Assembly (NCBI GenBank): GCA_009914755.4
Contig: CP086569.2
Span: forward strand, 10,176,001 to 10,240,000
Direction: 5' to 3'
Source: the human T2T-CHM13v2.0 reference genome, Homo sapiens
Length of the DNA stretch: 64,000 bases
The notes beneath the pieces are model-generated. The model worked only from the letters and a program-made list of their open reading frames with translations. It ran no database searches and was not told the DNA's origin. Shown piece after piece: positions 15,609 through 64,000 of the stretch (the stretch's first letter is position 1; every line of letters begins with the position of its first letter). The translations under genes and the position numbers were made by a program.

Positions 15609-15646
<38 letters not shown>

Positions 15647-15652: not shown

Positions 15653-15820
15653 CCAGTTATATTTGTTAACATTTAGAAGAGGGTTGACATGATGTGCATA
15701 ATTTTAATCAATCCTGGTGTTGTCTCTGAGTAAACAAAGTGCATGACTGATATTTGAGATACTTCATGCCTTATCTCTGGATATCTACTTATGTTCTATT
15801 TTCATTTGTTTGTTTGTTTG

Positions 15821-16286
<466 letters not shown>

Positions 16287-16770
16287 CTTCTGTTTTCATC
16301 TTATACCATGACTGGTTCATCTTCCAGCTATGCTCCAGTCACCCTGAATTATCTTATAGTCACTTGATTCCAATAATGCACAAGCTTTTTTGTCTCCAGG
16401 CTCTGACACAGGCTGTTTCCTCTGTTTGGACTCCCCTTCCCTTCTTTTCTGCCTAAAATATTTCTACTCATTCTCCTATATCCAGAGCTCTTGATGCACA
16501 TTCTGAGTTAGTAAGCAAAATATATATGTATGTTCTATAAATGTTTATTGAAAGAATTATCATAAATTTCATCATTTTTAAAAAGGGTCTGTGACCCCAT
16601 AAATATTAAGATTCATTTATTTCTGCCTGTAATCAAATGTGACACAGTGAAGGCATACACAGACCTCCTCATTTCCCACTGCCCGAAACAAGTTATCTGT
16701 CACAGATATTCTGTCCCTTTTCTCAGTTTTTATAGCACACTTTACATATTACTCTCCTTTTTTTTGTTTG

Positions 16771-17070
16771 TTTTTTTTTTTTTTTTGAGACAGAGTCTTG
16801 TTCTTTTGCCTAGGCCAGAGTGCAGTGGCGTGTTCTTGGCTCACTGCAAACTCTGCCTCCTGAGTTCAAGCAGTTCTCCTGCCTCAGCCTCCCTGGTAGC
16901 TGGGAGGCTCCCAAGTATTCTCCCAAGTACTCCCACCATGCCTGGCTAATTTTTTGTAGAGATGGGGTTTTACCATGTTAGCCAGGATTGCCCCAATCTC
17001 CTGACCTCATGACCCTCCCGCCTTGCCCTCCCAAAGTGCTGGGGTTATAGGCATGAGCCACTACATGCAG
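16771..17070 (-). mobile_element. Alu, full length
   Basis: tttttttttttttttgagacagagtcttgttcttttgcctaggccagagtgcagtggcg ... ccctcccaaagtgctggggttataggcatgagccac. Confidence 0.85.
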
Positions 17071-17746
17071 ACTAGTATCGCTCGTTTTATACCATTTCTA
17101 CTTGTATCCCTTTGGACTGAGCTATCACTGAAGGCAGGAACAATGTCTTATTCACCTTTGCTCACAGAAATTAGCACAAATGGATTCATTTTAGCTGGGA
17201 GAATGTTGAAGCTTAAGTCAACTTGCCTGGAATTTAAAGGTTTGCATATGCTAAAATTCTGGAGGATACAGTGCTTGCATCTTCTAACTATTACCCATAC
17301 ATTTAAATTTTTGACAGTCATTGCCCTTCTTCAGGTTACAATGTGAATACCAAGAAATACAACATTTCTCCTTAATAAAATATGACAACCTTGAGCTGTG
17401 ATAGTCTGACACAAACACAATCAGTGTGGTGCTATCTTCTTCTCCAATATAATTTCTTCCAATTATTTTAATTATATGAGTTATAGAAATAAAATAAATA
17501 AGTAAAACAAAGGGGAATAAATTGTTGGCAAAATAATTAAAAAGTCTCAGAACTTCAGGATGCTTATTTATAGATTAAAAGGTGAACACCTAGCAAAATA
17601 GATGAAAATAGACTCATGTCAAGATATGTCAATGTAAAATTTGAGAACACTGAGAACAAAGAGAAAATTGTATAAGTTTCCAGAGAGGTAAAAATAGGTC
17701 AGGTACAAAGGATGAGGAATCAGATGATTTAAAGATTGTCAACATT

Positions 17747-18067
<321 letters not shown>

Positions 18068-19964
18068 TCAACACCATCACTATAAACCTGAAGGCAATGG
18101 ATTACAGTTATGCTTTAAAAATTCTAAAAGAAAATAATTTCTGACATATGTTTTTGTTTCCACATAGACTAAAATCAAATATACAAGTAGAAAACATACA
18201 TTTTTCAGACATATGACAACTGTAAAATTTTGTCTCCCTGTGAAGCTTTTCTCAGGAAACTGCTAGAGATTTTTTTCCTACCAAAAGGAAGAAGTAAACC
18301 AAGACAGATAAATATGTGAAATGCAGAAAATAAGAGACAGAACAAAAGAGAGAGATAAATTCGTAAAAGGGTAATGAATGAAATTCCTAGGATGAGACAA
18401 TTGAATGAGGCCTAGAGGGCAACCAGTCAGACTGTTGCAGCAGCCTACAAGAGAGTGTTCTTCAAGGTGGGAGCATTTATAGAACAATTCATGTGAATAA
18501 AAGTCTTGATATGAGATTTAAAAAAATTAGTAAAGAATTTTCAATTGAATTAGCACAAGTTAAAATAAAATTAAGTGGAAATTGAGCAACAAAATTATAA
18601 CCACTATTTCTCAGCAATTCATGGTTATCATAATAGAAATTTAAGCGTACTGAGAACTTAATGATACCGAAATTATTACAGATTAAATTTGTGAGTAGCA
18701 GGAAAAGTGATATTACAATAGGAGTTTATAGACAAATGTTTCTATGACAACTTGAAAATTAATGTACTAGATATTTAAATAAAGTATTAGAAAAGAAACA
18801 GCAGCATCAATTCTGAAAAACTAAAGTGAGGGGATAATGATGCAGGGAAAATTAGTAAAACATACAAAGCTAACTTTTGGTTGTTGGAGAAATATAGTAA
18901 ATGGTACAAACCTCAGGCAAGTTTAGATAAAAAGGGAGAAAGCACAAATAAAACTAAGAATTTAAAAGATACATAACTATAGATACAGTATAGATTAAGA
19001 AGCTAATAAGGAAATATTATTAACACTTCATCCTACAAATTTGAAAACTTAGATCAAATAGAGATATTTATAATCTGTCTATATATATAGACATATATAT
19101 AGCTTTCTATATATTTTTTCATATTTAATTTTTTATATTTACATCTTATATTTATATATAATATATAAAGATAAATATAATCTATGTATATAGCTTGGTA
19201 AAATTGATATAAGAAGACATATATAATCTGAATAGTCTCATAAATGTTCAAGGAAATAAAGGATTGTTCCTAGAGATAAAACAACAGGCTCACATTTTTT
19301 CCCCAGGCAGAGCATTTCAATATATATGAAGAATTCTATAAAATAAAAAAGGGAAAATCCTAAACTTATTCTGTGAGGCAAGCAGGACTTTGAAGCCAAC
19401 AAGACATAAACTGAGTAGATAAAAAGATATGAAAACTAAAGTCCATTCTCATTCGTGAAACAAATGGTAAAATCCCAAATGTAACAAGATTTATGTGGGT
19501 TCTTTGAGGGTTAGAAGGAAATTTGCTTCTGCCCGATCCTGCTACTCTAGGACAACCCACACGCAAATTTATGTTTTGAGATTTTCTATAATACCCATGC
19601 AATATGGAACTGGCTTGACAATCTGTGTGATAGCCAGCCTGTGGCCACGACTTCTCAGGGACACAAATTGTTTCTGTTTGCCTCCTTCTTCTGCTCAGCT
19701 CCAAGAGAACTTTGACCAAAGTTCCTTGAGCTTGGAAATAGGAATGGGTGGGTTTACTTCTGTTTCACCATTACTGTGAAGATACGGTCTGGTGGAATCC
19801 AGATCCACTGGGAGAGAGTTGGCTATTAAACTCTTTTCCTGAGTAGTCCCTAGGCCTTGACTAGAGCCTTTCTTGAGATATGAGGCTAATAGTTCCTTCT
19901 TGGTCCACCACTTTTTGATATAATTAATGTTTCTTCCACTGGGAATTTTTAATGGTTTGGGAAG

Positions 19965-46289: not shown

Positions 46290-48480
46290 AAACACGAAAA
46301 GACACCAAGTCCCTGTCGGTACAAATCACAGATGTGCTTCCGAGTTACTGAGGCACGGTGCAAATTTGTCAGTGCCCTTAGCATCTGTGGCCCACGTGCA
46401 CGGATATTCAGTGGAAGAAGCATTACACAGCCTGTATAATTCAGCACGATCTGTGATAATACCAGAAGAAGGGATCTCATGTGAAATCACTAGACTGAAT
46501 TGCACGTAGGATTCAAGGAAGAAGCCCAGTCTGCTGCATTCACTCGGTGGGGTGGCAATATGGCTGAGCCACCAACCCGTGGCACGCCCATCCATCGTAG
46601 ACAGTTCCTGGTTTGCTACCTGCCTTGGAAAAAGCTCCTCCCCTACCACCACTTTAAAACAGGCTAGCTCCAAAACTAGCCCTGGCATCTATTTACGGTC
46701 ATTTTCTTATCTATTTACCTCCTAGAAAAATCATTGCAAGACCCTTTCCTCAACATTTTCCTATGCCTTAAATTTGGGGCAACACGTTTTAAGACGACCT
46801 CGTTATAGGCAAGTCCCCAGACGTTTCCTAATCTGAGTTGCCCAGAGTGCACACACCAATCTGTTGCCCCATTGCCGCTATAGGGATACCGTACTGGACC
46901 ACAGTGTCTTTGACATGCACACAGTAGGATAGAGGGCAGCTTGAGGGGGCCAAAGGGTTCCGACTGTTTTCAGAATAATTTGCTTAGAACACCTGTTTCT
47001 CCTGTGTTTGTGGGTCAGGGGGACGGTAGTCAGAGGAGGACAAGACTCCCGCTCCAGAGCTTCAGAGGTCTGCATAGGAGCAGGGACAAAACCGGGCGAT
47101 AGATTTTCAAAGCTCAACTGCTTTGACACCGAGCAGGAGGGGTAGAATGCATATTGCAGGCACCACAACAGATTCAGGAACTTTGACTGTCAAACCCTCT
47201 TCCCTGAAACAACATAGCTCTTCTCACAGAAGCTGTGCTGACCAGAGTCTATACGGGACAGCAATGTTAGCACTCTAGTAGCGTGTGGTCAACATGGATG
47301 CTCGTGTTGGAACTGTTTCATCTGGGAACAGGAAAGAAAGTTCTGCCTCCGACACTGAAATCCTCCTGCCCCATCCTTGACAGAGGCAACCCCTTGTCTT
47401 GTGCAGACACACGTGTTCCTGGGAAGCAGCCTCCCACTCGCGAATGAAAGCTGTATGTTTTGTCCTCCTGTGTGAGGCTTGCAAAACATATTCCGCAACT
47501 ATATTCGCTTTACGTTCTAAACCTTAGGCAAACTATGCTGAAGAGGCCACAGAAAATTTAGGGGCCCTGGGCTCCAGATACAATCTGCAGTGCCAATCAC
47601 GAGGGAGAACAGAGCCTCACTAGACTTTGCAAGAGCACAAAATGCACTCGTACTGTTGTTAGCTACATACGTTATTGGCTCCTCACCTAACACAGAATCT
47701 TGGAGAAAAGCTTAAAACAACTAAAGATGTAAACATCAACAAGAGTGTCCATATCCTGGGTCATCAAGTGACAAGAGAGTCCATGGATGGATTCTCCAAC
47801 AATCTTATATTCCACTAATCCACCCCCTTTCCCCTCACTTCTGTAAGTTTCTGTTTTCCCTTAGTCATCTATGCCAAAAGCGTATCCTGAATGCCTTCCC
47901 ACATGCCTCTGTCACCTTTCCCACAGTCCCTCCATACACCTTACATGCCCATTTCTTCTCACGTTGATGTTTTAGAAGTCCTGAGAGGCTGATTGTCCCA
48001 GAAAAGGATCATGCATTCACCTTTAAAAGAACATGTGGATTCAACACGAAAGCGAACTTTAAGATTTCCATCATCCTGTGCTTAGCTACTGTGTATGATG
48101 ATACCCAAAATGAAGGATTTTGGAGGTCCCAGCAAACTGGGCCCTGGAAACCCAGTAACCCCATTCCTTGAACTATCTCTGCTTCCATAGGACGAAGTCA
48201 GCCTCCAACTAAGCTGTCTTTTGCTTTTACCTCTCCCACTCTGTCCTGTAGGAAGAATCCCAACACATCCCACACCCATTCACTCTACAACTTTAGAGGC
48301 CCAGCTCCAACGCAGACTGGTTATTTCCATGAAGAGAATAAAGCACGTGGATTGATCAATTCATTATGACACCCGAATAAAGTGGATAAACATACACACA
48401 CACACACACACACACAAACACAAAGACACACACACACACACAGACACAGAGTCACACATCCTTGAGAATGTTTATTTTTC
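46290..48480. other. 2.2-kb segment present only in unit 2 (indel relative to unit 1 at about 28170-28200)
   Basis: Unit 1 reads aaatatacgcaaatacagacacacggttggtagtttaaacctgtctgattttctgtgactggatctgtttttcctttag. Unit 2 reads aaacatacgcaaccacaaacacacacgtgctactttaaacacg ... 2.2 kb ... ctgaatttttgtgactcgatctctttttcctttag. A (CA)n-rich tract sits at 48396-48450 at the right edge. Confidence 0.8.
48396..48450. repeat. (CA)n-rich microsatellite
   Basis: acacacacacacacacacacaaacacaaagacacacacacacacagacacagag. Confidence 0.9.
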
Positions 48481-48646
48481 ATTCCATACAATCCACATTT
48501 ACCCCCTCTTCCTGAATTTTTGTGACTCGATCTCTTTTTCCTTTAGTTCCTGTGCATAAGACCATGCTGAGTACTGCTGTCCTGCATATGGCTGTAACTT
48601 TTTAGGAGTTCTGCTGTATTAGGTAAAATCTGATGCTCCATCATAT

Positions 48647-48669
48647 TCAACTCAACAACTGGGAGTCCC
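48647..48669 (-). CDS. TSPY1: TSPY exon 6 coding part (stop codon at 48647-48649)
   Basis: Minus strand tgtgtttctctag|gggactcccagttgttgagttga gives (G)DSQLLS*; the remainder of the exon is 3'UTR. Confidence 0.7.
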
Positions 48670-51203
48670 CTAGAGAAACACAAACTCATGTTAAAACGCA
48701 TTTTCTCTGAGCCATACTTTGAAATGTTTCAATTGTGGGGCCCGCTGAGAAAAGGATATCCCTTCCCCATTTGTGATCCCTTAAACTTCCTCCTACCACG
48801 TGTTACAAACTGTTCTGCGCAATCCCTGCCCCATTCCCAGTATTGTCTGTGAGGGGAGTCAGCTAACAAGATGCACTGGGCCCTAAAAGCACACACAAGT
48901 CTGATGGGGCAACAGCTTAAGGAAATCCATGAATCTAAACAGTCCTTTGTGGTTTGGGGCAAGGATGACCAGGACGCACATTCAGGGAGCCCAATCTCAT
49001 GGGGTTGGTGGGATGACTGCCGGTGGGGTTGACAGCCGTGGAATCAAGTGCCACAGACTGAACTGAATGATTTTCAGCTTTACTTCTCATTGATTCTGGA
49101 AATGGACGATTCTTCACTGGGCTTAAGACTCCACAGCTATCACCCGCTTTGCAGTGCAGTCTCTAACGTGCCTTTTCAGCCCAATGCCATGAACGTCCTG
49201 GATTCTGTCACTCTCTGTCTTCCTCTCAAGGAATTTCTACATGTACGAAAGGAGCCTCAATTTCTACATTTCTGAAATGAGCACCCAGGCTCCCTGAATA
49301 GGCAGGTGTGTCAACCCCCTTATACTGGGCATCAAACAGCTCCAGTGCCAACTAACGGCTCACCTGACGTCTCTGTTCCCTCTTCAGGTGGCTTCATCCT
49401 CTTGTAGTATTGCAGGGGATTGCGCCACAGGTCCTTACATAGGATCTGTCAGGGGACTCAATCGGGAAAGGCCTCATCAGGGCTCAGAAAGGTGACCCAA
49501 GCAGCTGGGAACACACGGGGTCATTCCTCATGTTTCCCAGTGAGGACTCACCTCAGCAATCTTGTTAGATCCTGCGAAGTTGTGGTCAGAGAACCAGTTG
49601 AAGAAGTTAAGGCTGCTGTTGTGGTGTCTGCGGCGATAGGCCTCCACTTCATAATCCGGATACCACTCAATTGGAGTGGAATGAGAAGCCCTGTATTCTA
49701 CAGAGACAGGAGTTTTTGTGGGAAGGGGGCTGGATCCCGTTGGCAATGATCCACCCACCATCTTCCTTCCACTACCCATCCTGGGAGCCACCTGTCACCT
49801 GTGATGTTCACCAGATATTCCTTGGTAATCACTTTATTCTGGAAGTAGGGGTTACTCCGAAAGAACAACATGATCTTGCAGAGATGAACACGATGCTTCT
49901 CTTCTTCCACCTGTCAGGACAAGGTGGAGAAAGCTTAGATAGGTTTTCGGGTGAGGTGCTCACTCTTGCTTACAGGAATGAATTATTTCCCTTACCCTCC
50001 CCCGCTAAACCCTCCAGCCCCAGTCTTCCTGGCCTCACCTCCAGGCTGACCATGTAGCTCAGCATGTCTTCATCTTCGTCAGTGATCAGGGCTGACATCT
50101 GGGGGTGGTTTGCAATCTGATTTAGGTCAAAGAGACTTTAATGGAAGGGAAAGCGAGGAGCAACAGGGAAGAAGGCCTAAGAGCACCCAGAGGCTGGGGT
50201 AGGGGATTTCTCAGATCTGCTTCCATGTATGATCTCCTTTCGCCTCCCCGTCCCCGTAAACTAAGGCCTCCTGTGTTCACAGAGGGTGTATGATTCTGAG
50301 GCTGACTGCACTGACATGGGGAGGCGCGATTTGCAGAGACTTGCTGGTGTCTGAGGAGTGGCAGAATCTGCTTATAGCCGAAGACGCCCAGTCCCAGATC
50401 GGACTAGCAAGGGGCAGCAATCACACTCCCTTAAAAATAGCTTCATTCACTGAAAAACCTCTTCCGCTCTGAACTCGCTTCTGCTCTTCAAAAAGATGCC
50501 CCAAACGTCTGCTGCTCGGCATCACCAAGGGTTTCTCTGCCGCATGCAGGACAATAGTACCCACGCCTTCTCCGCCTTTCCACAGCCACATTGGTCCGTG
50601 GCAACTCCCCTTTGTTCCCCAAAGAGTCACATCGACGCCGAGCTGCCCATCGGTCACTTACACTTCCCCGAGAGCACCTCTCCACTAGAAAGGCCGAAGA
50701 AACACTGAGAAGGATACAACATTGGCCCAGAAGCCAGGGACGCTCTGGATGACGGCGCCTCTGCGGTCTAGGTGGGGCTTGCGCCTCCGCTCCATCTTTT
50801 CCCGCTGCCGAGAAAAGGCCTTCCTGGCTTGGGCATTAACCGGCTCCAGCTCCACCTGAACGGCCAGCAGCTCCTCCAGTGCAGACTCTGGGGTCATGGG
50901 CCCAGGGCCAGGCACAGCCTGCTGTGCCCGCTGGGCCTCCTCCCGCCGCTCCACGAGGCCCTCCTCCTCCGCCACCACCTCCACCTCCGCCATTATGTCA
51001 TCCAACAGCAGCACCGCCTCCTCCCCCAAAGCCGCCTGCTCACTCTCCACCCCGGCCGCCCCCTCCTGCACAGCCTCCATCCTGAAGGCGGTGCCCTCCT
51101 TGGCACTCGCACACACCAAGGCCTGTGCTGCCCGACCCACGCCACAGGAACCCTGCCGCAGCCTCTCTGGCACCCGGTAGGTCAGCGAGCCCTCAGGGCG
51201 CAT
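48647..51203 (-). CDS. TSPY1: TSPY (testis-specific protein Y-encoded), apparently intact 6-exon gene, 308 aa
   Basis: CDS is join(51203..50718, 50116..50039, 49910..49799, 49697..49552, 49445..49364, 48669..48647) on the minus strand, total 927 nt giving 308 codons plus stop. Exon 1 (ORF 50685-51290) reads [162 protein letters not shown]|gtatcc. Exon 2 is [26 protein letters not shown]|gtgagg. Exon 3 (ORF 49698-49910) is [37 protein letters not shown]. Exon 4 (ORF 49528-49791) is [49 protein letters not shown]|gtgagt. Exon 5 is [27 protein letters not shown](G)|gtgagc. Exon 6 has acceptor tttctctag| then GDSQLLS*. All junctions are GT/AG and phase-compatible. The protein matches the NAP/SET-domain TSPY as I remember it. 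Exon 5/6 coordinates are +/-2 bp. Confidence 0.85.
49364..49445 (-). CDS. TSPY1: TSPY exon 5
   Basis: Acceptor cctgacag|atcctatg...; [27 protein letters not shown]; donor gtgagccg. Confidence 0.75.
49552..49697 (-). CDS. TSPY1: TSPY exon 4
   Basis: Acceptor tctctgtag|aatac...; [12 protein letters not shown]...GSNKIAE; donor gtgagtcc. Coordinates derived from ORF 49528-49791(-). Confidence 0.8.
49799..49910 (-). CDS. TSPY1: TSPY exon 3
   Basis: ORF 49698-49910(-) begins at the exon's first codon GTG, which follows acceptor cctgacag; donor gtgacagg follows ...VNIT. Confidence 0.8.
50039..50116 (-). CDS. TSPY1: TSPY exon 2
   Basis: Acceptor aaatcag|attgcaaaccac; encodes [26 protein letters not shown]; donor gtgaggcc. 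Confidence 0.8.
50718..51203 (-). CDS. TSPY1: TSPY exon 1 (coding part)
   Basis: ORF 50685-51290(-). Met of MRPEGSL at 51201-51203. An in-frame upstream ATG at 51288-51290 ([29 protein letters not shown]) is likely 5'UTR. Donor gtatcc follows GFWANV. Confidence 0.85.
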
Positions 51204-51900
51204 GCGCCGGGCTTCCAGGCGCCCCCTAAGGGACTGCGCGCGAAGAGCCGGGGGGCCGCACCCAGGCCGACTTCCTCCCGTCGTGGCCAATCAATGGAAG
51301 GGCGGTGGGCGTCTCCCTGGGCGGCACAGCCACTGGCGGGCCTGCATCTCCAGCCCCCCCACCCCCCGCCTTCCCTGCCCAAGCCTCCTCCGAGAAGCCC
51401 TTGGAACTTGTGCCGGGTAGCTAGGCGTCCGGGCACACGCGGGCTGCGTGGCCTTTGGAATTGTGGGCATGGCAGCCCTGTGCCCTGACATCCTCAGTGT
51501 GGCAAGCCATGAACATCTCTATGTGTCATGAACACAGGAAACATCTCTCTTCATTAGGCAGGCCAGGTAGATGGTACATAAGGAATATTGCAGATCCAGA
51601 GGAGAACTTTCTCTGGTTGCTGGGGCGAGGGCGGCGGGGGTGGCCTAGCAGAAGTGAGTCGGGGCGGGTATGTGGGAGGAAAGTCACCTGCTTGTGCAGA
51701 GGTGGAATTCGTCTGCACTGTAGGCTAGAACCCTGGCATGTACTCTCGCAGGTCGAGGCAAATACAGGCTCCGAGTACCATGCTTCCTCCCTGAGGATGC
51801 TGTACTCCAAGGAGCATTCCAAAGGGCCTCTAGTCCTGTGCCCTGGGCACACCAGAGGCCAGCCGCCAGGGTTGGCCATTGTCGGCCTGCGCGCACGCTG
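51203..51900 (-). promoter_or_regulatory. CpG-island promoter of the unit 2 TSPY, with CCAAT and GC boxes
   Basis: tcgtggccaatcaatggaagggcggtgggcg at about 51283-51315. High CpG density through about 51900. Confidence 0.7.
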
Positions 51901-52227
51901 TTGTGCACTGCCTTGACGACCCAGAGGCTCCCGCACCCGCAGCAGCCGCTGCGGTGCCTGCTGGTGGGGCTCTGGAAGCACAGGGCCTCGGCCTCTGGCT
52001 TCTGAGCTCCTATGCGCAGTTGACCCTGCTGTGGTCCTGAGCCCCACGGCGAGTGCGGCCATCTGCGGGCCCAGCGGGGCTCCTCAGGAAACCTGGGTCC
52101 ATGTAGGTGTGGGACTAGGTTTTCAGCAGGGAGAGGCCCGTGGGTCTTTCACGGAGCGGGCCTCTTGGGGAGCAGCCCCCAGAGCATAGGGATACCGGGG
52201 ATGTGCTGGGCTGTGCAGGCCAGGGTC

Positions 52228-52515
52228 TGTGGGAGCACCCAGGAGGGCACCGTGTTCAGGCTGGAGGCTCTGCTGGAGAGGACGGCCGGGGTACAGAGCA
52301 AGGAGGCAGCCTTGGAAGAGGAGGCGGTGCTGAAGGTGGAAGACATAATGGCTGAGGTGGAGGTGGTGGTTGAGGAGGAGACTGACGTGGGGTGGCAGAA
52401 GGAGGGCCAGCGGGCACAGCTTGGCCCTGGACCCAGCACACCCAGGCCATCAATGGACTCGCTGGAGGTCCTTCACTTGGAGGTAGACTCCGTGAATGCC
52501 CCTGTGGCCTGGGCT
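52228..52515 (+). other. Inverted, diverged TSPY exon-1-like segment upstream of TSPY (unit 2)
   Basis: ORF 52165-52863(+) reads ...[94 protein letters not shown]. Confidence 0.8.
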
Positions 52516-53589
52516 TCTGGGACAGAGCCATATCCTTGCAGCTGCCGATTCCAGATGGCTGGCAGCAGGGGATGGGCATCGGGCTTCGTGGGGGCATGGG
52601 GGCTGTTGGGGGAGGAGCCAGGAGGAGGCACATGGGGTGAGCCAGGAGGCAGGGGATGGGGGACAGGATGGGAGCCGAGGTCACGTTCCTGCAGCTGTGA
52701 GGGCAGCTTGCTTGTAGCAGCACTGGGAGCACGTGGTAGGGAAGGGGAGCCGAGCACAGCACTCACAAGGGAGAATCGCGGCGCCAGAGTCCCTTCACGC
52801 ACAGCACAATGTCAAAGGGCATGTTTCCCTGGGAATGTCCTGGAGGAAGGGGAGTCTGCATGACATTGCCAGCCATTGAATCACCCCCGCTCTCAGTGCC
52901 CGTTTCCAGAAGGCTCGCCCCAGAAACACAAGGTGCTTAAGACTCGGGTTAGCGGTACATGGGGCTGCCGACCTCCACAAGGCAGGTACTAGCTCCCCAG
53001 ATATGCTTTCTTCTGCCTGCCGGCGCTGCACCCAAAGGGTTATAGCCCCTGAGCGTATATAACCTCCTTTGCACCCACCCAGTCCCCATGGGGAGCGCCA
53101 GGAACTACCCTGCAGCCCCTTCTAACTACAGGGCTTCCTCAGGCAGACAGGTCCACCCCTCAGGGAGACTAGGATAAGAAGACACCACACACCCGGACAT
53201 CAGCAGAGCATGTCCAGCACCCAGCAAGCAAAGGCCTCCTGCAGCTCATGAACCCAGAGAAGCAGCCGCCTCACACCACCCTGCCCCCGCCCCTGCCCCT
53301 CAGCTGCAACCACCTGCCCACTTTTTCTGCCTCCCGTCTCTGGTCAGCCCAGGCCGTCTTGGCCGGGGTCCAGCCACCCCAAAAACCACCACAGTTGTGG
53401 CATTGCCTCCTCACCAGACAGAAACAGAGGATCAACATCGGAGCGTGACAGGCCAAATGTCTGGGAGATATCCCTGCTCCACATTCTCTGTGCTCTTGCA
53501 GAATTGCAGGCGTCAGGAGGCTTGCCCACTGAATCATCTGGAGACTCCTTGACCAGATGTAGATTGTTTGGCACACCAGATGTTGACCT

Positions 53590-55080
53590 GGGTTGGAAAC
53601 CATGATGAAGTGATGGATTTGCAGGTCAGGCTGGGGAGCCTGGGTCTGTGGGAGGGGTCCAGTGTCTGAGTCAGTTTGAGGTCCCCCTGGGGTCCAGGGT
53701 TGTCTCAGTTGCAAAGCTGGGAATGGGAAATTCATGCTTCACTCCAGCTAGCAGGCCACCTCAGCCCAGCTAGATGAAATGGTCCCATTGAATCCATACT
53801 CTTTCTCCTTCTTGGTTAGGCAGGTGGAGGAACTCAGGCATCCCTGTTACCGGCAGCAAGATGAAGATTTCCTTTTGTCACAGCCTTTATTTCCACAATG
53901 AAGTGATCAGTAAGTAGTACTGCATTGGCATCCTCGGTAAGGAGTGCCTCCTAGCATGGTAGGGGAGCCGGTATGTGGGAGGGTAGGTCTAGGATGAACC
54001 TTCCTGACTCCTCTCCCTCCAGGGTACAGGGTATCTCATTCCACTGCAGTCCAGTTGTTCTGGGATCATGAAGGTCAAGCCTCCAGCTGCAGGCAGTACA
54101 CCTCCTACCTGAGCTTTTTCACCTGTTTGGCTGAACATGACTGCCCGGGTTTTGGTAGGATTGCTGAGGTGAGGTTCACCATGGGGCATCATGGGAAAGG
54201 ACCTCGCTGGGCATTCCTTGGTCTCTGGGGAATTGGCATTAAACTGTGACATGAACTGTCCTGGACCCACTTCTGCAGTCCCCTAGATCATCAGCCAGGG
54301 CCTATGGCTCAATCCATTGCAGTTCTATTCCATGGTGGGAGGGACAGCATTTTAGAGGGAACAGAGGCCAGGGAACAGCCTAGGGCTGGGAACTGAGAGG
54401 TCTTTCAGTCCTGGATCTGTGCCCCACAGGGAGAACCCAAGGATCATGCAGGAAACTGCAATGAGCAATCCCAGGCCATCCATTGGTTGGGGGAGAAAGG
54501 CCCATCGGTGAACTGCAACACCCACATTTCAGGATTGGGGAACCTTAAGCCACTACAATGCATATGTGACTAAGATCAGTGGGTGAGAAGCAGAGCTTAA
54601 GGGATAGCTGTCTCATCATCACTTGCCAGCTCCCTCCCTTGCCCTGAGACCTCCTACCACCTGAGACTCAGTTTGAGCTCATCCAGGACCCTCTCCCTCT
54701 CTACACAGATATCCACCTGAGGCCCATCTAAGTCTACATTCCTTCAGAATGTTTCTCCCAGGTCTGTCATGTTCTGTTTTGATGACCCCGGGCTGCCCTG
54801 ATATGTTATCCTCTCTGCTATCCTCACTCCAACTGCCCTGCCTTCCCATATAAGACAGTCCACTTCACAGGGAATCTGGAGGAATGCACTGGGTTCCAGT
54901 GTGATGAAATGTTCTATTATCTCCATGTACATGTATTTTAGAGCTTCCTCCAGGACTGGAAATGTGAAGAGATTGCAAAATGGCTGGGGACCTTCAGTAT
55001 GTGTCCAGGGAGGGAACCTGGCTGGGAATTAAGGCCCACCTGAGTAATGGTATGGACATCCAGTGTCAGTTATCTTGATA
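53590..55080. repeat. Intra-unit paralogous segment B (unit 2)
   Basis: Parallel to 33290-34760; ORFs 53989-54270(-) and 54055-54249(+). Confidence 0.75.
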
Positions 55081-55594
55081 AAGACCTGCTTTGTTACATC
55101 ACCTACTATTAATATAAAAGTTAATTTCTTAGAATATTGAAAAAACAAATTTAAGTGCAAAGAAAAATAATTTCTTCATAATTGTATGGAAAAACTGCAG
55201 AAGGATCCATTTTCCATTATAAATATTATGAGAGACTTGAAGTGTTTATCAAGTTTTAAGATATATTTTTATTGTTCTACTCCTGGCAATTGTTATGATC
55301 ATTTTTGCAATACAGGGACATGGACTCTGGAAAGTTTTTGAGGGACTTTCAGCTTCTTTTAGAGTACTTAGTCGTAAATTTTGAATTTTTTTCCCCTGTG
55401 GTTCTTTTCACTTTACTATTTGTACTTTATATGCAAGGTGTTAATTGTGTTTTCTTATTTGCCTCTTCTGGAACTTTTGTTTTCAAGGATTTTCTTTTTC
55501 AGTTAGATATGTGAGTTTGCCTCTGAGCACTTTTTCTAGCATAGATTTTTTTTTTAAATTCATTAGTTTTTGGGGGGGTGTGTGTGTTTGTTTG

Positions 55595-55862
55595 TTTTCA
55601 GATGAAGTCTCGATCTGTCATCCAGGCTGAAGTTAAGTGGCAAAATCTCGTCTCACTGCAACATCTGCCTCCCAGCTTCAAACGATTCCCCTGCCTTAGC
55701 CTTCTGAGGAGCTGGGATTACAGGCACATGTCCTGCTAATTTTTCTATTTTTAGTAGAGACTGGTTTCACCGTATTTGCCAGACTGGTCTCATACTGCTG
55801 TGATCTGCCTGCACTGGCCTCCCAAAATGCTGGGCTTCCAGGTGTGAGCCACCACGCCCAGC
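55595..55862 (-). mobile_element. Alu, full length in unit 2 (only an 85-bp remnant in unit 1 at 35365-35450)
   Basis: gttttcagatgaagtctcgatctgtcatccaggctgaagttaagtggc...cctcccaaaatgctgggcttccaggtgtgagccaccacgcccagcc. Confidence 0.85.
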
Positions 55863-57531
55863 CTCATTTGTTTGTTAATGTATTTTAATCATTATTATAT
55901 TTTCTTCATGTACATGTATTTTATAATTATTGAAATAATGTATTATATTTACTTAATACTTTTGTAGGATTTTATATGTAATATTTTCGCTCACCAAATA
56001 CAGTATTGTGTATAGGTTAACCTTGTATAGTATTGTCATTCTGTCTTTCATAAATTATTCAAGAACTCCAATACTGTTTTTCCCCAACCTGAGGAGAACA
56101 TGCAGATAGTTATAAAAAATTGTGCGAGGGGGTAAGTATGAAAATATAATCTGAAAGAATAATCAAATTCACAAATAAATTTCACATTTGTATTTTGCAT
56201 CATTTTGAAAATTTTATTTGCTGACACATGAAATTCTGTATTCACCTTCATGTTAAATATACACTTTTGAATCAATTTCAAGAATGAAAGCAATCCAAGG
56301 CCATGCATTAGTTCAGGAAGTAGAAAGCAGTTGTTATGTAGAAAAAGATCATATTTAATGAAGGTATATTTAGAGAGATCTTAGAAGGCTTAAGTCAATA
56401 TTTTTGTTTTTGTTGTTTTGGTGTTTTATCATACTGTGACCAGACTGTAGCATCAATAGTTATAGTCACTAGGCTACCAAAGTCTCAGAGCTGCAGTAAT
56501 TATTATTGAGGAAAGTGGCAGTGTGGTTGGCTCTTTAAGGAGAGTAGAGGACTTAGGAGTTTCCACCCAAGCCACAACGGCCTGATTTAGTGGGTGGCCT
56601 TCTTTTGCTGAAGCAGATAAGATACAGGAGAAGTGTGGACTCACTGTAGTAGCTAGGGCTTTGAGACTGGTAAAGCATATTTGTCCCCTAGTGCCATTGC
56701 CAGATATTGGTCTGCGCATAATGACATTTTCTGGACTCACTGACTCCTGTAAATTCAAACGTAGAATTTGGATTTAAATCCCTATTCCAACTTCTTAAAC
56801 TTAGAATTAATAAGTGGGTGATAAAATATGTATTCAGAAGAAAGGCAGACATCAGATAAGTACATAAGTAAATCTTCCTGGTAAAATACCTTCAAAAGTG
56901 TTACTACAAAAAAATCACTGAAGAGCATACCTTAAACAAGTTATTTTACTTGGAGAAATAGAAAAATGTTGGAGTCGTTTTATATACAATGTCTAATTTG
57001 TTTGAAGAACAGCATACTATCTCTTTAGTATGGCTAGAGATTAATAACTCATGTAAGAAAACTCAGATTGACAATAAAATTTTTCAGAGATTTTGTTCTG
57101 TAATTAAAGACTTTTAAAATGGTTTCCTACTGATCAATGATTCACTTATATTTATCATTTAGGCATATGCTGTATACCCTTCTATACAGGGACAAAGTTA
57201 TAGTTTCTATCATGTAGATAGAAAAGAATTTGACTGTGTACCACATTTGCATTAATGTCTTTGACCTGAGTAATGAAGCAAACAATGGAACTGTCTATGT
57301 CAGGTTACAGGTGGGCACAGCTGGAAGCTTCCATCACTTGTGCTTTAACATTTCTGCATTCTCATCAGTCTCTCCTGGAAAGAAAATGGACTATAACTAT
57401 CCTAAAGAACATATGTTACATGTAGACACTAAGTATTGAGATAAAACCTTGATTTGTCTTATCACTGTCTCGTCATTACATTTGTATGTGTAACTTACAC
57501 AGAGAAATTCAGTTTATTTTATCACCATTAA

Positions 57532-58160
<629 letters not shown>

Positions 58161-58659
58161 ACAACATTGTCATTCTTTAATCACTTTTTAAATGCCACTC
58201 TTCAAAAGTAACAAGTAAATTTTACTTAAGAAATTCCAAATGCCAAGTCAAGTTCAGCTTCATTTTCATAAAGAGGTAAAAAGAAAACAAATCAAAAAAC
58301 CTTCTTTTTCCTTTGTTTTGAAGTTAGCAAAGAGTTGGAAAACCAATCATGTCTACTTTGGTTTACAAAATTGACTGTACAGAGAAAGATCCTCATATAA
58401 ATGTTTTCAGATCTAAAATCTTGTGAAGTTATCATCAGAACCATCATCTTATAAAACAAAAACACATTTCCTAGTGGGTCTCTTGTGTGGATTAAACATC
58501 TTATTATTAGTAATGTATACAATTGTGATTACAGTTACTCCTTGAAACATAATATTAAAAATACAAATCTCATTTATTTTTTACAACTGCTACCCCAGTG
58601 AGAAAAAATAACACTGACCTGGTGTAATAATTTGTGCCCCAGAGAGCCAGCCTTCTGGA

Positions 58660-58864
58660 CTATTCAGATTCTTCAGACAGCCGGAGTGCTGAGAGCCGAA
58701 TGGGAGTCTGGACATCTTGGAGGAGTAGCAATGCCAGGATATTTCTTGCTGCTCCACTCACCAACCAGAATCTCTCATGCAGCAGAATGGTAGACACCTT
58801 CACAACTCTCAGTTGTGCCCCAGGATGCCTCAGGCCCAGTATCACAGCAGTGTCTTCAGGACTC
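58660..58864 (-). pseudogene. Serine protease (prostasin/testisin-like, S1 family) exon with Asp-region motifs, ending in a stop
   Basis: Acceptor gatgcacacag|g. It encodes (M)SPEDTAVILGLRHPGAQLRVVKVSTILLHERFWLVSGAARNILALLLLQDVQTPIRLSALRLSEESE*. Prostasin has ...[60 protein letters not shown]. ORF 58660-58845(-) covers most of it. Confidence 0.6.
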
Positions 58865-59228
58865 CTGTGTGCATCGGCAAAGATTTATTACAATACATTC
58901 ATTAGAAAACCTGAACCTTAAACCTACATCAGGCTTTCTAGCATATTTCTTTATTTATGATACATAAGGTCCCTAGCTCATCTTCAGAGAAATCAGAAAT
59001 CTATGGATAAAGAGTTCATAGACAAGGGGATTGCAGAGGAATTGACTAACAGAGGTACTAATAAGCCAAACACTGTGACAAAATTTCTTTTTAGCCTAAA
59101 ACAAAAATGTTATCCATATAAGTGAGATGCTCATGTATTATAGAAGTGAATTAGGAAGAGAAACCTTCAGCAATGTACTTATGGGATCATAAATCATAGG
59201 ATATGGGAAGAGGCAGGCACAAACTTAC

Positions 59229-59364
59229 ATGTTCCTGACACAGTGGGCAGCTATGAGAACCCATGAGCTGCTAACTATGGACCCGCTGTAGACCTGACTG
59301 CCACAGCTGATGATCCCAGCCTGCCAAGGCATGGCATATTGCAGAGAAATCTGATCTGCTGAAG
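59229..59364 (-). CDS. Serine protease catalytic-His exon (trypsin-fold, ...WVLIAAHC) with consensus splice sites
   Basis: Minus strand ttatttttctcttcag|CT TCA GCA GAT CAG ATT TCT CTG CAA TAT GCC ATG CCT TGG CAG GCT GGG ATC ATC AGC TGT GGC AGT CAG GTC TAC AGC GGG TCC ATA GTT AGC AGC TCA TGG GTT CTC ATA GCT GCC CAC TGT GTC AGG AAC AT|gtaagt. This reads ...ADQISLQYAMPWQAGIISCGSQVYSGSIVSSSWVLIAAHCVRN, which is phase-compatible with the 58864 exon (AT+G). It is the non-poly-K part of ORF 59225-59479(-). Confidence 0.65.
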
Positions 59365-59419
59365 CTGAAGAGAAAAATAAGCTAATTGTGCTAATTTGAA
59401 TAGAATTGCCATCTGTAGA

Positions 59420-59421
<2 letters not shown>

Positions 59422-59463
<42 letters not shown>

Positions 59464-59748
59464 TGAGACAGAGCCTCACTCTGTTTCCCAGGCTGGAGTG
59501 CAGTGGCGTGCTCTCTGCTCAGTGCAAACTCCGCCTCCTGGGTTCCTGCCATTCTCCTGCCTCAGCCTCCTGAGTAGCTGGGATCACAGATGTCCATCAC
59601 TGTGCCTGGCTAATTTTTTTTGTATTTTTTAGTAGAGACGGGGTTTCACCATGTTAGCCAGGATGGTCTCGATCTCCTGACCTCGGGATCCGCCCGCCTC
59701 AGCCTCCCAAAGTTCTGGGATTACAGGTGTGAGCCACCGCACCTGGCC
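59422..59748 (-). mobile_element. Alu with a 41-nt pure poly-T (A-tail on the minus strand)
   Basis: A t-run at 59422-59462, then gtgagacagagcctcactctgtttcccaggctggagtgcagtggcg...cctcccaaagttctgggattacaggtgtgagccaccgcacctggcc. Confidence 0.9.
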
Positions 59749-62289
59749 CATTTTTTTAAGTTTTAAATCCCTCCTATTTGTGCTAACCAAATTAGCATTG
59801 TTAAATATGACCAGCAAAGACAAGCTTCTACGTCTTTTGTGTTCATGCATTTTTCTTGAAAAGAAGTGTTCCTCTTACTATCTTTCTGAGTTCATAGTTT
59901 CTTTATGTCATAGCTTAAATTTCTTTAATCAAAATATTGGGAGTCATCCCAGCTTTCTCCCCCATTGCAACATTTATATATCTATGATTGTAGCTACCCA
60001 GAAATCACTGAAGTAGATAGGCAACAAAAAAATGTAATGATTTGAATGTATTAATAAATAATGAAAAATTTGGAGATAAAGCACCTGTCTCTAAAATGGA
60101 GGGGGCTTTTCTTCCTAAACTTATAATTTTAGTGAGATATCAAACCAATAGTTTAAATAGAAAATTCAAGATTGAGGTTCAGGAAAGAGCTCATATTTTT
60201 AAAATTATTTTAGCGTTCCTCAGAAAACTGAGTTGAAGCAATGCTCGTTTATATATATAGAGAGAGAGATAAAAATGTTGAAGATAACCTGTCTGTAGAA
60301 GGGGTAAGGAAGTATAGATGAAATTAGAAGCATAACTAAGATGTTAAGTGTAGTTGTCTTTGAGTTAGACTTTGGAGGATGTGAGCAAATAATTATGGCC
60401 TCTTTTATGTTTTAAGTGTATTATTCACTGTAACTATGGCGATAGGTGGTAGCTATAAAATAGCTGTGGCTAAGTGCACATTTAACTCATGAGACCAAAA
60501 GAGATCCCTCAATTTCTAAGGAAACAAGTAGAAGTACAGTAATGTGAAATAGCCATTGCTAATATTGTGATAGGTTTTCTGATAGCCAAAGGAAGGGGGA
60601 AACTGATAATAGCAACGTAACCCAATCTAGTACACCAGCACCTAAAACTCATTACTTACCAACTATTACACTGTTTCCAAACATCAAAATATCTTTAACT
60701 TAAAATATACTTAATTTAAAATAACTCTATTACAAATGCAAGCTACTGTGTGGTAGTAAAGAAATGTCTTTGTGTTAGAAGAGTGTGTCTTAATATTAGC
60801 CCTATTCATCTTTTGCCATGAGAAATCGATCAATCCATTCTACTTATCTAGTATCAGAATACACATTTAAGATAACTATAATAATCACGTTAAATGATCT
60901 CTATCATGATCTATAGGGATACTATGGAAATTGAATAATATATCAAGTATGAAATGCCTTTGTAAGCCATAAGGAAATAACTTCCATGATTTGGGAGATA
61001 AAATATTGTGCATTTTTCAGGAAGAGCTTTCTCTCCTCTCTCCTTCCATCTACTCTTTTCTATTTCAATTACCTTCTTCTTTGGCTTTGCCTACCAAGGT
61101 TTTGAGCCTTACTCTGAGGCTGTGGCAGAGAGATGAAGTGTGGCCAAATGGAAGTGGGAGCGGAGATAAAAGTCAAGGCATCTTTAGAAGCAGAGACTGA
61201 AAGGGACATGGAAGCAGAGGTAGTCATGGGCCCCTGGTGGTGCCAGGGTGCATGGCTAGGCCATGGCACTCCCAGGAGCCAGAAAGAAAAGGGTGCACTT
61301 GGCTGAAGACACAGGGCTTTGTGCAATGCTCCTCAAAGTGACTCAAGATTCCCACTTGCACCCAAGTGTCCTTTTGCTGTAGATGGCATACGAAAGGTGC
61401 TCCCAAGTCACGCTGCAAGAAACAAAGATACAAGATATGAATCAATATTTTGAAGGAGGGCCAGAAGTAACTTTTAGTGTGCAAGATATTCCTCTTTCTT
61501 CCTGGCATTCATACCCCATGAATTTGTCCCCTTACAGCCAGCCTCCCCAACAGCTGTCTTGGCCTCTACACAAAAAGTGAATTCATTCAGCTTGGGGCAC
61601 AATTGGGCACAAGGGCTGACTTGTTGGTTGCTCAGGTGCCCTTTTTGCAGAATTCCAGAACTTCCTGATAGAAAACACAGAAGAGGTGTTTGTGTTTGTT
61701 TGTTTTCAAATTTAGCCTAGATTAGAGGGGGAAGTATGGTGAAGAGAAATACATTTTTTTTTATTATTCAAGAGAGGATACTATTCTCTTTCCAAACATG
61801 CTTCTCTTCCATCCCAGGGTCTTCTTCATTACTCAGCCCTCATAAGGGACCAGCTAGATAGCCAATAGTCATATAGTTGTGTAAATTTCTCCTGTTCCAG
61901 ACTTTCCTCCAAGCATAGAGGAAACACCAGGGGTTGAAAATGTAGTGGCTGCTTCAGGAAGATCAACCCAGGTCCTAGAGGTCCCTTGGGAGCTAGGTAG
62001 GGTATGGCATGGTCAATGCTCACAGTCAGCTTGGGCAGATTCCAGAAGATGACTAAGCCCCACTGGACTAGGGCCAGGGCTCCTGAGCTTTTTCTGGGGA
62101 AAAAAAATCAAGAAAAATCTTATTATTTCCACATTTCAATTTGAATGAAGCCCTGGAGGTCACATGAATCCAGATGAAGTCCAGGTAAGCACTAAAGTAG
62201 AAATACTTCTTTAGAAACTATTTTCGAGGATCATTTGAGACCAGGTGCACAACATGATAAGAGCTTATTTATGCCAAAATAAAAATAGC

Positions 62290-62430: not shown

Positions 62431-64000
62431 TCTCTGTTTCTCTCTGTCTCTCTCACACACACAGACACACACAAATAAAGGGAAAGATATTCATTAACAA
62501 TCTCCAGTTGTAATTGCTTTATAATGATATCTTAATCTTGAAATGAATTACTTAGATTTACATAAAATAGGCACATCTAGCTGTGGTAAGGATACACTGT
62601 TCATTTAGTATGGAGCCAGCACAGAAATGGGAGAAAGACAGTTGTAGAGAAACTGTCAAGGGAATTCACCAATTCCTGCCTCCCAGCAGCTGGGACAGAG
62701 GGTTACATGGCCAGGGCATAATCCACACTCCGCAGAAGGAATACACATGTGGAATAGAGTGAGATTAGTGTTACCACTCTCCTATTTCTAAAATCTAATT
62801 TTAGGTTTTTAGGAATATGCTTGAGAAATTCAGTATCTTCAATTCTGAGACAATGCTTCGAAATATGCATTATTCACCCTAAAATTTCAGATATACTACA
62901 GAGGTTATCTGCATACTTTCCCTTTAAATAATAATGTAAAGTATATATATATATACACACATATATATATATCTTATTTATATCCAAGATATTATACTAT
63001 TATCCAATAGTGTGTGTATATATTCATATACCTCAAGTGGAATAATAAACCATTTCTAAGAAGTAAGACTATCTTTAAAATACTGCTCTCTGAATAGAAT
63101 TGTGCTTATAAAACATAGCCCATAAATCCTGTTTGGCAAAAATAAGATATCTCTCAATATTTAAACATCTCTCCTGAGTCATACAATAACCTAAATTTTG
63201 GTATTGCAAAGATCTGCGGACATAACCTCTTATCTTACAAACTGTGGTTTTAGAGTTCAACAAGGGTCTTCGTACCAAGTATATTAACCCAAACCTATGA
63301 CTAGACTAAAGGTGCCTGTGTTTTCATGAGAAATAACAGCTGTCTTGAAGAGCCAGAAAGTCTGGAAACTTTCTTTCCATATCACAGCTAGTTGACACTC
63401 AACCAGGGAAACATTGAGTTCTAAATGCCTAAGAGGTTGTTGTCTAGGCTTGGGTCCAGATTGAGATCCAGGCATCAGGAGAAGTTAAAAGTGTGGCTGG
63501 AGCAGCATGCAAGGATGAGAAAGAATGGGAAAGAATGCACTATTCAGTAAATGTTAAGAAAGATATTTTCTGAAGAGGATTAGCAGAAGAGGCTATGGAT
63601 AGGAGAACAGGAGAAGAGACCAGAGGAAAAATAACTGAGAAAGATGGGAAAATGCAAAATGAAGGGAATGCACAAGAAGAAAAGATTGAACAAGAAGAAC
63701 ACAGTGTATGTGGAGATGGAAGAGAACAAGACAGAAAAAAGAAAAAGGAGGAACAAAGAGAGATAAGAGAGGTACCTAGGACATCAGGGCTTTCTTTTAT
63801 CTTGATAATTTTTAATTTCCTGCCGTAGTGCTGGTAAACAAATCTTCTAGGAAGCAAATGCTTATAAGCTCGCTTGGTTGGAGAGAAATGATTTATCTTG
63901 GCTTTCTGTGACAGGTATCTCAGTTAACAAAGTGATAAAATAGTGATCTGGGAAAGAAACAGTTTTTACTGCCAAAAAGGGTACACGTTTAGACAAGGAG

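What the first reader, a model, noticed from the sequence alone, without database searches (positions are those of the whole stretch)
58660..59364. Two phase-compatible exons of a prostasin/testisin-like serine protease end in a stop about 0.5 kb from the TSPY array edge
On the minus strand, 59229-59364 has a strong acceptor (tttttctcttcag), encodes ...PWQAGIISCGSQVYSGSIVSSSWVLIAAHCVRN (the catalytic His motif of trypsin-fold proteases), and ends in a gtaagt donor in phase 2. The next exon (acceptor cacacag|g at 58864) completes the codon and encodes SPEDTAVILGLRHPGAQLRVVKVSTILLHERFW...NILALLLL...PIRLS. That aligns with the prostasin region [30 protein letters not shown]...GDIALLQL...PICLP but runs into TAG at 58660. 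The Ser-195 exon is missing, and the Alu and TSPY array begin within 0.5 kb. This is either a Y-linked serine protease pseudogene (PRSSLY-like) or a protease gene truncated by the rearrangements that built this locus. I do not recall a serine protease annotated beside human TSPY, which is why this deserves a look.
Basis: partly seen in the sequence, partly recalled or inferred. Interest (0 to 1): 0.7.

Follow-up and report, generated by a model that had tools for sequence, protein, structure and literature searches.

The report
Known human PRSSLY pseudogene beside TSPY
The two protease-like exons are real, but they belong to the already published, non-functional human Y-chromosome remnant of the PRSSLY gene, so this is an ordinary pseudogene rather than a new or truncated protease gene.

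Summary
Minus-strand exons 59364-59229 and 58864-58660 have the stated splice signals. Spliced, they give a 112-codon ORF with a significant Trypsin-domain hit (Pfam E=1.4e-8).

The locus is already described. The 'Human, Homo sapiens (model)' PRSSLY pseudogene transcript in Hughes et al. 2022 (BMC Biol 20:133, Additional file 9) contains exactly this exon-exon junction. It maps to the window at 100% identity as nine collinear minus-strand exons, from beyond 64000 down to 56379.

- The gene is not truncated by the TSPY repeats, and the downstream exons are not missing. They lie at 57374-57242 and 56746-56379, inside the outer TSPY repeat unit.
- The TAG at 58660 is not the ancestral stop. A private 2-nt deletion about 25 nt upstream shifts the frame; the exon really runs to 58619.

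Against intact mouse-lemur PRSSLY the locus carries at least eight frameshifting indels, a nonsense codon, loss of Asp102 and broken splice sites. "Prostasin/testisin-like" is only generic S1-protease similarity: 83% amino-acid identity to lemur PRSSLY, against E=1.2e-7 for the best solved structure and 7e-6 for prostasin.

One side result may be unreported. The TSPY repeat-unit boundary sits in an Alu inside a PRSSLY intron, so both TSPY units here carry PRSSLY's last two exons.

The parts
63316..64000 (-). 3' part of the giant upstream PRSSLY exon (model nt 2978-3662). It runs off the window end.
   Evidence: 100% identity over 685 nt to the Hughes 2022 human model. The junction that follows is non-canonical: gc donor, gg acceptor.
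62562..62729 (-). Exon encoding the start of trypsin-like domain 1 (CPSCWEAGIGEFP...SHFCAGSILNEQCILTTARC). It has Arg in place of catalytic His, as in intact PRSSLY.
   Evidence: Exact match to the model. tblastn to lemur PRSSLY, with a 1-nt deletion near 62657. Pfam Trypsin E=1.2e-6 for a stitched translation of this exon plus the next, 62727-61832.
61839..62093 (-). Domain 1 exon
   Evidence: 100% to the model. 66% aa identity to lemur. Indels of 1, 3 and 2 nt. The donor is gg instead of gt.
61536..61666 (-). Domain 1 exon
   Evidence: 100% to the model. tblastn to lemur.
61113..61412 (-). Domain 1 C-terminal part plus linker exon
   Evidence: 100% to the model. A 5-nt deletion at its start and a 1-nt deletion near 61285 relative to lemur.
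59465..59748 (-). Alu with a long poly-A tail, in the intron just upstream of the first flagged exon
   Evidence: 87% to an Alu consensus. The poly-A run is visible.
59229..59364 (-). Flagged exon 1: start of trypsin-like domain 2, including the His57 motif (LIAAHC)
   Evidence: Exact match to the model. 71% aa identity to lemur by tblastn. Pfam Trypsin E=1.3e-5 on its own.
58619..58864 (-). Flagged exon 2 at its true extent. Asp102 is lost (NDL>NIL). A 2-nt deletion near 58686 shifts the frame into TAG at 58662-58660. The donor CCAG|gtcagt is at 58619.
   Evidence: tblastn shows the frame change between ...PIRLSA and GCLKNLNSPEGWLSG.
57589..57859 (-). Alu in the PRSSLY intron. The right-hand boundary of TSPY-unit homology (57672) lies inside it.
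   Evidence: Self-alignment ends at 57672. Alu hit. The junction alignment shows unit 1 following this Alu and then switching to sequence homologous to 18515 onward.
57242..57374 (-). It has a 1-nt deletion near 57345 and a TAC>TAA nonsense at 57307-57305.
   Evidence: 100% to the model. Lesions listed and aligned.
56379..56746 (-). Last PRSSLY exon: the region equivalent to the Ser195 motif (SPENVIMR, against lemur TPGSAVMC), the C-terminus and the 3' UTR
   Evidence: 99.7% to the model, with one extra C at 56592. 59% aa identity to lemur.
37135..57672 (.). TSPY repeat unit 2 (20.5 kb). It contains the last two PRSSLY exons and a TSPY gene on the minus strand at about 51203-49359.
   Evidence: Self-alignment. 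TSPY tblastn. Pfam NAP E=2.6e-19.
18515..37134 (.). TSPY repeat unit 1 (18.6 kb), 86-89% identical to unit 2, with a degenerate TSPY at about 30880-29045
36686..36823 (-). Orphan copy of the penultimate PRSSLY exon in unit 1. It shares the same 1-nt deletion and the same TAA.
   Evidence: 89.9% to the model. Alignment.
35782..36148 (-). Orphan copy of the last PRSSLY exon in unit 1
   Evidence: 88.6% to the model. 58% aa identity to lemur.

Best explanation
The flagged exons are exons of the human Y-linked PRSSLY pseudogene, the remnant of 'protease, serine-like, Y-linked' described by Hughes et al. 2022. They encode the first half of the second of PRSSLY's two trypsin-like domains.

The whole 3' half of the pseudogene lies in the window on the minus strand, from beyond 64000 to 56379, and it keeps the ancestral exon-intron layout. 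It is not a working gene. It has accumulated frameshifts, a nonsense codon, loss of the Asp102 position and damaged splice sites. According to the paper it is transcribed only at trace level and no transcript carries a usable ORF.

Shown here:
- identity to the published model
- the exon map
- the list of lesions
- the relation to the TSPY repeat units

Inferred:
- that no protein is made
- that decay began in an early anthropoid ancestor
For: - The exact spliced junction GGAACAT|GAGTCCTGAAG and both exons occur in the paper's 'Human, Homo sapiens (model)' sequence.
- My reconstructed model is 5398 nt, the length listed in the paper's Additional file 6.
- Model nt 2978-5398 map to nine collinear minus-strand blocks. 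All are exact except for one extra C in the window at 56592.
[quoted passage not shown] - The 112-aa ORF is 83% identical (E=1e-49) to mouse-lemur PRSSLY residues 291-393. The best solved structure reaches only E=1.2e-7.
- Both trypsin-like domains of lemur PRSSLY (Pfam E=3.3e-46, two stretches) have counterparts in order in the window.
- Lesions relative to lemur: frameshifting deletions at about 62657, 62064, 62027, 61412, 61285, 58686 and 57345, an insertion near 56491, and a TAA at 57307.
- The model's junctions include non-canonical sites in the window: a gc donor, a gg acceptor, a gg donor and a tc acceptor.
Against: - dN/dS over the 104 in-frame codons of the two flagged exons against lemur is only 0.19. 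These two exons therefore look better conserved than a long-dead pseudogene might.
- Expression and absence of protein rest on the paper, not on anything tested here.
- I could not place the window on a human assembly, or check its current annotation, with the tools available.
Confidence: 0.96

Rival explanations
1. A serine protease gene physically truncated by the rearrangements that built the TSPY repeats. On this view the 3' exons, including the Ser195 exon, were deleted or displaced.
For: TSPY-unit homology begins about 950 bp downstream of the second flagged exon. The reading frame ends in TAG at 58660.
Against: The two remaining exons lie in the right order and orientation at 57374-57242 and 56746-56379, at 100% and 99.7% identity to the published transcript model. 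They align to lemur PRSSLY residues 413-548. The TAG results from a private 2-nt deletion. The repeat unit copied the 3' exons into unit 1 and left the original contiguous.
Confidence: 0.01
2. A processed or duplicated pseudogene of an autosomal prostasin or testisin type protease (PRSS8, PRSS21), or of another PRSS paralogue such as PRSS55.
For: There is generic S1 similarity, and prostasin is among the solved-structure hits at E=7e-6.
Against: Introns with consensus splice signals are retained at the flagged exons, so it is not processed. Identity to lemur PRSSLY is 83%, whereas the factor XII and prostasin matches are weak. The two-domain layout, with domain 1 carrying TTARC and domain 2 carrying AAHC, matches PRSSLY.
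Confidence: 0.01
3. The locus retains a function despite the lesions, for example as a testis lncRNA or as a short peptide from the 112-codon ORF.
For: The paper reports low-level transcription. dN/dS is 0.19 over the two flagged exons.
Against: TPM is about 0.1-0.2 and not testis-specific in human: brain values are 0-0.23. The ORF lacks an upstream in-frame start within a coherent transcript, because earlier exons are frameshifted. Asp102 is lost. The paralogous copies decay independently.
Confidence: 0.02

Closest known systems
Human PRSSLY pseudogene (Hughes et al. 2022, BMC Biol 20:133, PMC9178871; Additional file 9 'Human, Homo sapiens (model)')
   Same: It is the same locus. The model's 3' 2421 nt map to the window as nine collinear blocks, exact except for one extra C in the window at 56592.
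   Different: The window has one extra C at 56592. The paper's text and held supplements do not mention the adjacency to, or overlap with, TSPY repeat units.
Intact PRSSLY of mouse lemur (Microcebus murinus, BK059441) and other eutherians
   Same: Same gene family and same exon order, with two tandem trypsin-like domains after a giant upstream exon. Nucleotide identity is 82.5% over the protease-domain exons, and amino-acid identity is 83% over the flagged ORF.
   Different: The lemur ORF is open and Pfam-complete. The human copy has at least eight frameshifts, a nonsense codon, Asp102 loss and damaged splice sites.
PRSS55 (closest autosomal paralogue of PRSSLY, according to the paper)
   Same: A testis-restricted S1-family member. 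The paper names it as PRSSLY's nearest relative.
   Different: PRSS55 has a single protease domain and is functional.
Prostasin (PRSS8) and testisin (PRSS21)
   Same: Same trypsin fold and the same His57 motif context.
   Different: The similarity is only distant (prostasin E=7e-6, ranked below several other S1 proteases). There is no specific relationship.

Membership tests
PRSSLY (protease, serine-like, Y-linked), human pseudogene | Sequence identity to the published human PRSSLY pseudogene model | tested here: met
   The model's 3' 2421 nt map as nine collinear blocks, exact except for one extra C in the window at 56592.
PRSSLY (protease, serine-like, Y-linked), human pseudogene | Much closer to intact PRSSLY orthologues than to any other S1 protease | tested here: met
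   83% amino-acid identity, E=1e-49, to lemur PRSSLY. The best solved structure reaches only E=1.2e-7. No explicit tree with PRSS55 was built.
PRSSLY (protease, serine-like, Y-linked), human pseudogene | Two tandem trypsin-like domains, preceded by a very long upstream exon | tested here: met
   Domain 1 remnant at 62729-61113 and domain 2 at 59364-56379. 685 nt of the giant exon are present at 64000-63316, and the rest is outside the window.
PRSSLY (protease, serine-like, Y-linked), human pseudogene | Y linkage | tested here: met
   This is indirect. The locus is identical to the model that the paper places on the human Y. It is also flanked by TSPY genes with a NAP domain. The chromosomal position itself could not be looked up.
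PRSSLY (protease, serine-like, Y-linked), human pseudogene | Open reading frame across the protease domains (functional gene status) | tested here: not met
   At least eight frameshifting indels and a TAA at 57307. It is a pseudogene, as published.
S1 (chymotrypsin-fold) serine proteases, Pfam PF00089 | Significant match to the Trypsin profile | tested here: met
   E=1.4e-8, 35.2 bits against a cutoff of 20.6.
S1 (chymotrypsin-fold) serine proteases, Pfam PF00089 | Catalytic triad His57, Asp102 and Ser195 encoded in frame | tested here: not met
   His is present (AAHC). The Asp102 codon GAC is changed to ATC (NDL>NIL). The Ser195-region exon is out of frame and reads SPENVIMR, against lemur TPGSAVMC.
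Prostasin/testisin subfamily (PRSS8, PRSS21) | Closest similarity to prostasin or testisin | tested here: not met
   Prostasin at E=7e-6 ranks below factor XII, TMPRSS11D, PSA and enteropeptidase. PRSSLY identity is 83%.
Processed pseudogene | No introns, with poly-A and target-site duplications | tested here: not met
   Eight introns are retained. The flagged exons and the two exons after them have consensus ag/gt splice signals.

The most novel reading that the evidence does not exclude
The human TSPY tandem-repeat unit was created by a duplication whose right-hand breakpoint lies in an Alu inside an intron of the already dead PRSSLY gene. TSPY units would therefore drag along PRSSLY's last two exons, and several further PRSSLY-like fragments on the human Y would descend from TSPY+PRSSLY block duplications.

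In this window both TSPY units carry those exons with the same 1-nt deletion and the same TAA. That dates PRSSLY's death to before the duplication. The tandem PRSSLY>TSPY arrangement may preserve ancestral stratum-2 synteny. I found no paper stating this, but I could not test whether the units of the main 20.4-kb array have the same junction.
Probability: 0.4. Interest if true: 0.3.

Novelty: already known. Interest (0 to 1): 0.1.

Why it matters
It matters little as a discovery. The locus is the published human PRSSLY pseudogene, a decayed copy of the only known ancestral sex-chromosome gene kept on the eutherian Y but lost from the X. It has no sign of coding potential.

Its modest value is as a dated landmark. 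Its intron holds the breakpoint of the TSPY repeat unit, and lesions shared between the copies order two events: PRSSLY died first and TSPY duplicated afterwards. That could help reconstruct how the TSPY array arose.

Tried and rejected
- **Prostasin/testisin affinity.** I checked it by searching solved structures. Only weak, generic S1 similarity appeared, so I rejected it.
- **Truncation at the TSPY edge.** Rejected once the published model and lemur protein were mapped.
- **First homologue search.** It returned only seven short unnamed ORFs from contaminating primate or human DNA. They were no use for naming the gene. The literature search for PRSSLY gave the answer instead.
- **Possible FAM197Y/CYorf16 link.** I searched the last-exon ORF against the protein collection to see whether a named human protein matched. 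No named hit appeared, so this was neither supported nor excluded.
- **Literature on PRSSLY and the TSPY repeat.** Searches linking the two and a search of the paper's supplements for TSPY found nothing relevant.
- **Chimpanzee and rhesus models as orthologues, to date the lesions.** All three pairs are only about 87% identical, and those models lack the human lesions. They cannot be treated as simple orthologues, so I made no dating from them.
- **Rough dating from dN/dS.** I considered it, but 104 codons are too few to rely on.

Full report
**Observation.** I read the minus strand of 58400-59700 and translated it.
- The first block, 59364-59229 (136 nt), follows ttatttttctcttcag and is followed by gtaagt. 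It encodes SADQISLQYAMPWQAGIISCGSQVYSGSIVSSSWVLIAAHCVRN and ends two bases into a codon.
- The second block begins after cacacag at 58864. Its first G completes ATG. It then reads SPEDTAVILGLRHPGAQLRVVKVSTILLHERFWLVSGAARNILALLLLQDVQTPIRLSALRLSEESE and stops at TAG (58662-58660).
- The spliced 112-aa product matches Pfam Trypsin PF00089 at E=1.4e-8, 35.2 bits against a gathering score of 20.6.
- It also matches 168 solved S1 protease sequences at E<=0.01. The best is coagulation factor XII at E=1.2e-7, and prostasin reaches only 7e-6.

The "prostasin/testisin" label is no more than generic family similarity.

**Identity.** A full-text search for PRSSLY led to Hughes et al. 2022 (BMC Biol 20:133, PMC9178871).
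[quoted passage not shown] Additional file 6 lists human testis TPM of 0.13-0.17 and brain TPM of 0-0.23.
- I rebuilt the model from supplement parts 29 and 30. It is 5398 nt, the length given in Additional file 6. I then mapped it onto the window.

Model nt 2978-5398 fall on the minus strand as nine collinear blocks, all exact except for one extra C in the window at 56592:

| Block | Window coordinates | Note |
|---|---|---|
| 1 | 64000-63316 | giant exon, runs off the window |
| 2 | 62729-62562 | |
| 3 | 62093-61839 | |
| 4 | 61666-61536 | |
| 5 | 61412-61113 | |
| 6 | 59364-59229 | flagged exon 1 |
| 7 | 58864-58619 | flagged exon 2, true extent |
| 8 | 57374-57242 | |
| 9 | 56746-56379 | |

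The window is therefore human, and the finding is the published pseudogene.

**Anatomy and lesions.** I took the intact mouse-lemur PRSSLY (BK059441) from the same supplement.
- Its last 556 residues contain two Trypsin-profile stretches (Pfam E=3.3e-46).
- tblastn of that protein finds every part of both domains in the window, in order.
- Domain 1 lies at 62729-61113 and has TTARC, with Arg in place of His as in the intact gene. Domain 2 lies at 59364-56379 and has AAHC.
- The flagged ORF is 83% identical to lemur residues 291-393 (E=1e-49).
- A nucleotide alignment of the spliced human exons to the lemur CDS is 82.5% identical. It shows frameshifting deletions near 62657, 62064, 62027, 61412, 61285, 58686 and 57345, an insertion near 56491, and TAC>TAA at 57307.
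- Several junctions in the model fall on non-canonical sites in the window: a gc donor at 63316, a gg acceptor at 62729, a gg donor at 61839 and a tc acceptor at 61666.
- Asp102 is lost. GAC has become ATC, changing NDLALL to NILALL.
A 2-nt deletion private to this copy shifts the frame, so AAG AAT CTG AAT AGC is read as ...GAA TCT GAA TAG. The exon continues to the donor at 58619.

- Right: the exons, the splice signals, the phase, the trypsin fold and the "PRSSLY-like pseudogene" alternative.
- Wrong: that the Ser195 exon is missing and that the gene is cut off by the TSPY repeats. The last two exons are present 1.2 and 1.9 kb further on.
Alu fragments occupy 58038-57892 and 57859-57589, and TSPY-unit homology starts at 57672.

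**Relation to the TSPY repeats.**
- Self-alignment shows two tandem units, 18515-37134 and 37135-57672. They are only 86-89% identical, so this is not the homogeneous array.
- Each unit has a minus-strand TSPY gene. The one at 51203-49359 has an uninterrupted exon 1 and a NAP domain (Pfam E=2.6e-19). The one at 30880-29045 is degenerate.
- The TSPY query was written from my memory, so its percent identities are only indicative.
- The right-hand end of unit homology, 57672, lies inside the Alu at 57589-57859, within the PRSSLY intron.
- At the unit 1|unit 2 junction (37134|37135), the sequence follows that Alu and then switches to sequence homologous to 18515 onward.
- The repeat unit therefore includes PRSSLY's last two exons. 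Unit 1 carries orphan copies at 36823-36686 and 36148-35782, about 89% identical to the originals.
- Both copies of the penultimate exon share the same 1-nt deletion and the same TAA. PRSSLY was thus already disabled when the units duplicated.
- The paper's text and held supplements never mention TSPY in this connection. I found no other paper that does.

**Further copies.**
- A search with the last-exon ORF found only unnamed ORFs.
- One, P0010 on locus L001 (a Logan assembly of SRR10681885, host unknown), spans the same unit|unit junction at 89-95% identity.
- Two others, on loci L002 and L003, come from metagenomes of project PRJEB21933. That project is a study of paediatric Crohn's disease intestinal biopsies (PMC5769311), so the DNA is almost certainly human host DNA.
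- L002 and L003 align to window 59425-53611 at 80% over 5.8 kb and carry four domain-2 exons. They share the Asp102 loss but not the 2-nt deletion.
- The paper's chimpanzee and rhesus models are each only about 87% identical to the human copy and to each other. They also lack the human lesions, so they are not simple orthologues of this locus.

Primate Y chromosomes evidently carry several old PRSSLY-derived fragments.

**Mechanism.** The best-supported account is a unitary pseudogene decaying in place.
- The ancestral eutherian Y-linked PRSSLY lost constraint in anthropoid primates. The paper lists pseudogenes from marmoset to human.
- It then accumulated disabling mutations. Its 3' end was later co-duplicated with the neighbouring TSPY gene.
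- It produces trace RNA and no protein. That statement rests on the paper and on inference, not on a test here.
It is not evidence of present function.

**Verdict.** The locus is already known, and I score interest at 0.1. The only possibly new element is that the TSPY repeat unit overlaps the PRSSLY pseudogene, together with the order of events this implies. Testing that needs a complete Y assembly.

Noticed in passing
window 57589-57859 and 37100-37170: The TSPY repeat-unit boundary (57672) lies inside an Alu in a PRSSLY intron. At the unit 1|unit 2 junction that Alu fragment is joined to non-Alu sequence homologous to 18515 onward.
   Followed up: partly
window 36823-36686 and 36148-35782: Orphan copies (about 89% identical) of the last two PRSSLY exons sit in the inner TSPY unit. 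The penultimate-exon copy shares the same 1-nt deletion and TAA as the contiguous copy, so PRSSLY was dead before the duplication.
   Followed up: yes
L002:148-5928 and L003:156-5939: Contigs from human intestinal-biopsy metagenomes (PRJEB21933) carry another PRSSLY-like copy, 80% identical to window 59425-53611. It has four domain-2 exons, the same Asp102 loss and none of the 2-nt deletion, so it appears to be a further human paralogue.
   Followed up: partly
L001:1-1580: A Logan contig (SRR10681885, host species unknown) spans the same TSPY unit|unit junction as 37134|37135 at 89-95% identity. That junction therefore exists in at least one more copy.
   Followed up: no
Hughes 2022 Additional file 9, compared with window 62730-56379: The chimpanzee and rhesus PRSSLY pseudogene 'models' are each only about 87% identical to the human copy and to each other. 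This is far too divergent for human-chimpanzee orthologues. They also lack the human frameshift and nonsense lesions.
   Followed up: partly
window 56592: The window has one extra C in a C-run relative to the published human model. With it, the local frame reads KEGHPLNQA, like lemur AEHPLNQA. It may be a polymorphism, an assembly difference or a typo in the model.
   Followed up: no
window 18515-57672: The two TSPY-bearing units are only 86-89% identical, and the sequence to the left (1-18514) is not TSPY-like. Within the window this looks like a two-unit cluster of old copies, not the edge of the homogeneous 20.4-kb array.
   Followed up: partly
window 31908-34049, 52189-54171, 23560-23718, 42037-42364 (+ strand): Each unit also holds very diverged (35-65% aa) TSPY-like fragments in the opposite orientation to its TSPY gene. 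The query was a TSPY1 sequence recalled from memory.
   Followed up: no
window 1-1790 and 8691-6765: An inverted repeat of about 1.8 kb (96% and 90% identity) lies in the non-TSPY left flank.
   Followed up: no
window 63316, 62729, 61839, 61666: Four exon boundaries of the published model fall on non-canonical dinucleotides in the window (gc donor, gg acceptor, gg donor, tc acceptor). This fits decayed splice sites, or a model built by homology rather than from reads.
   Followed up: no
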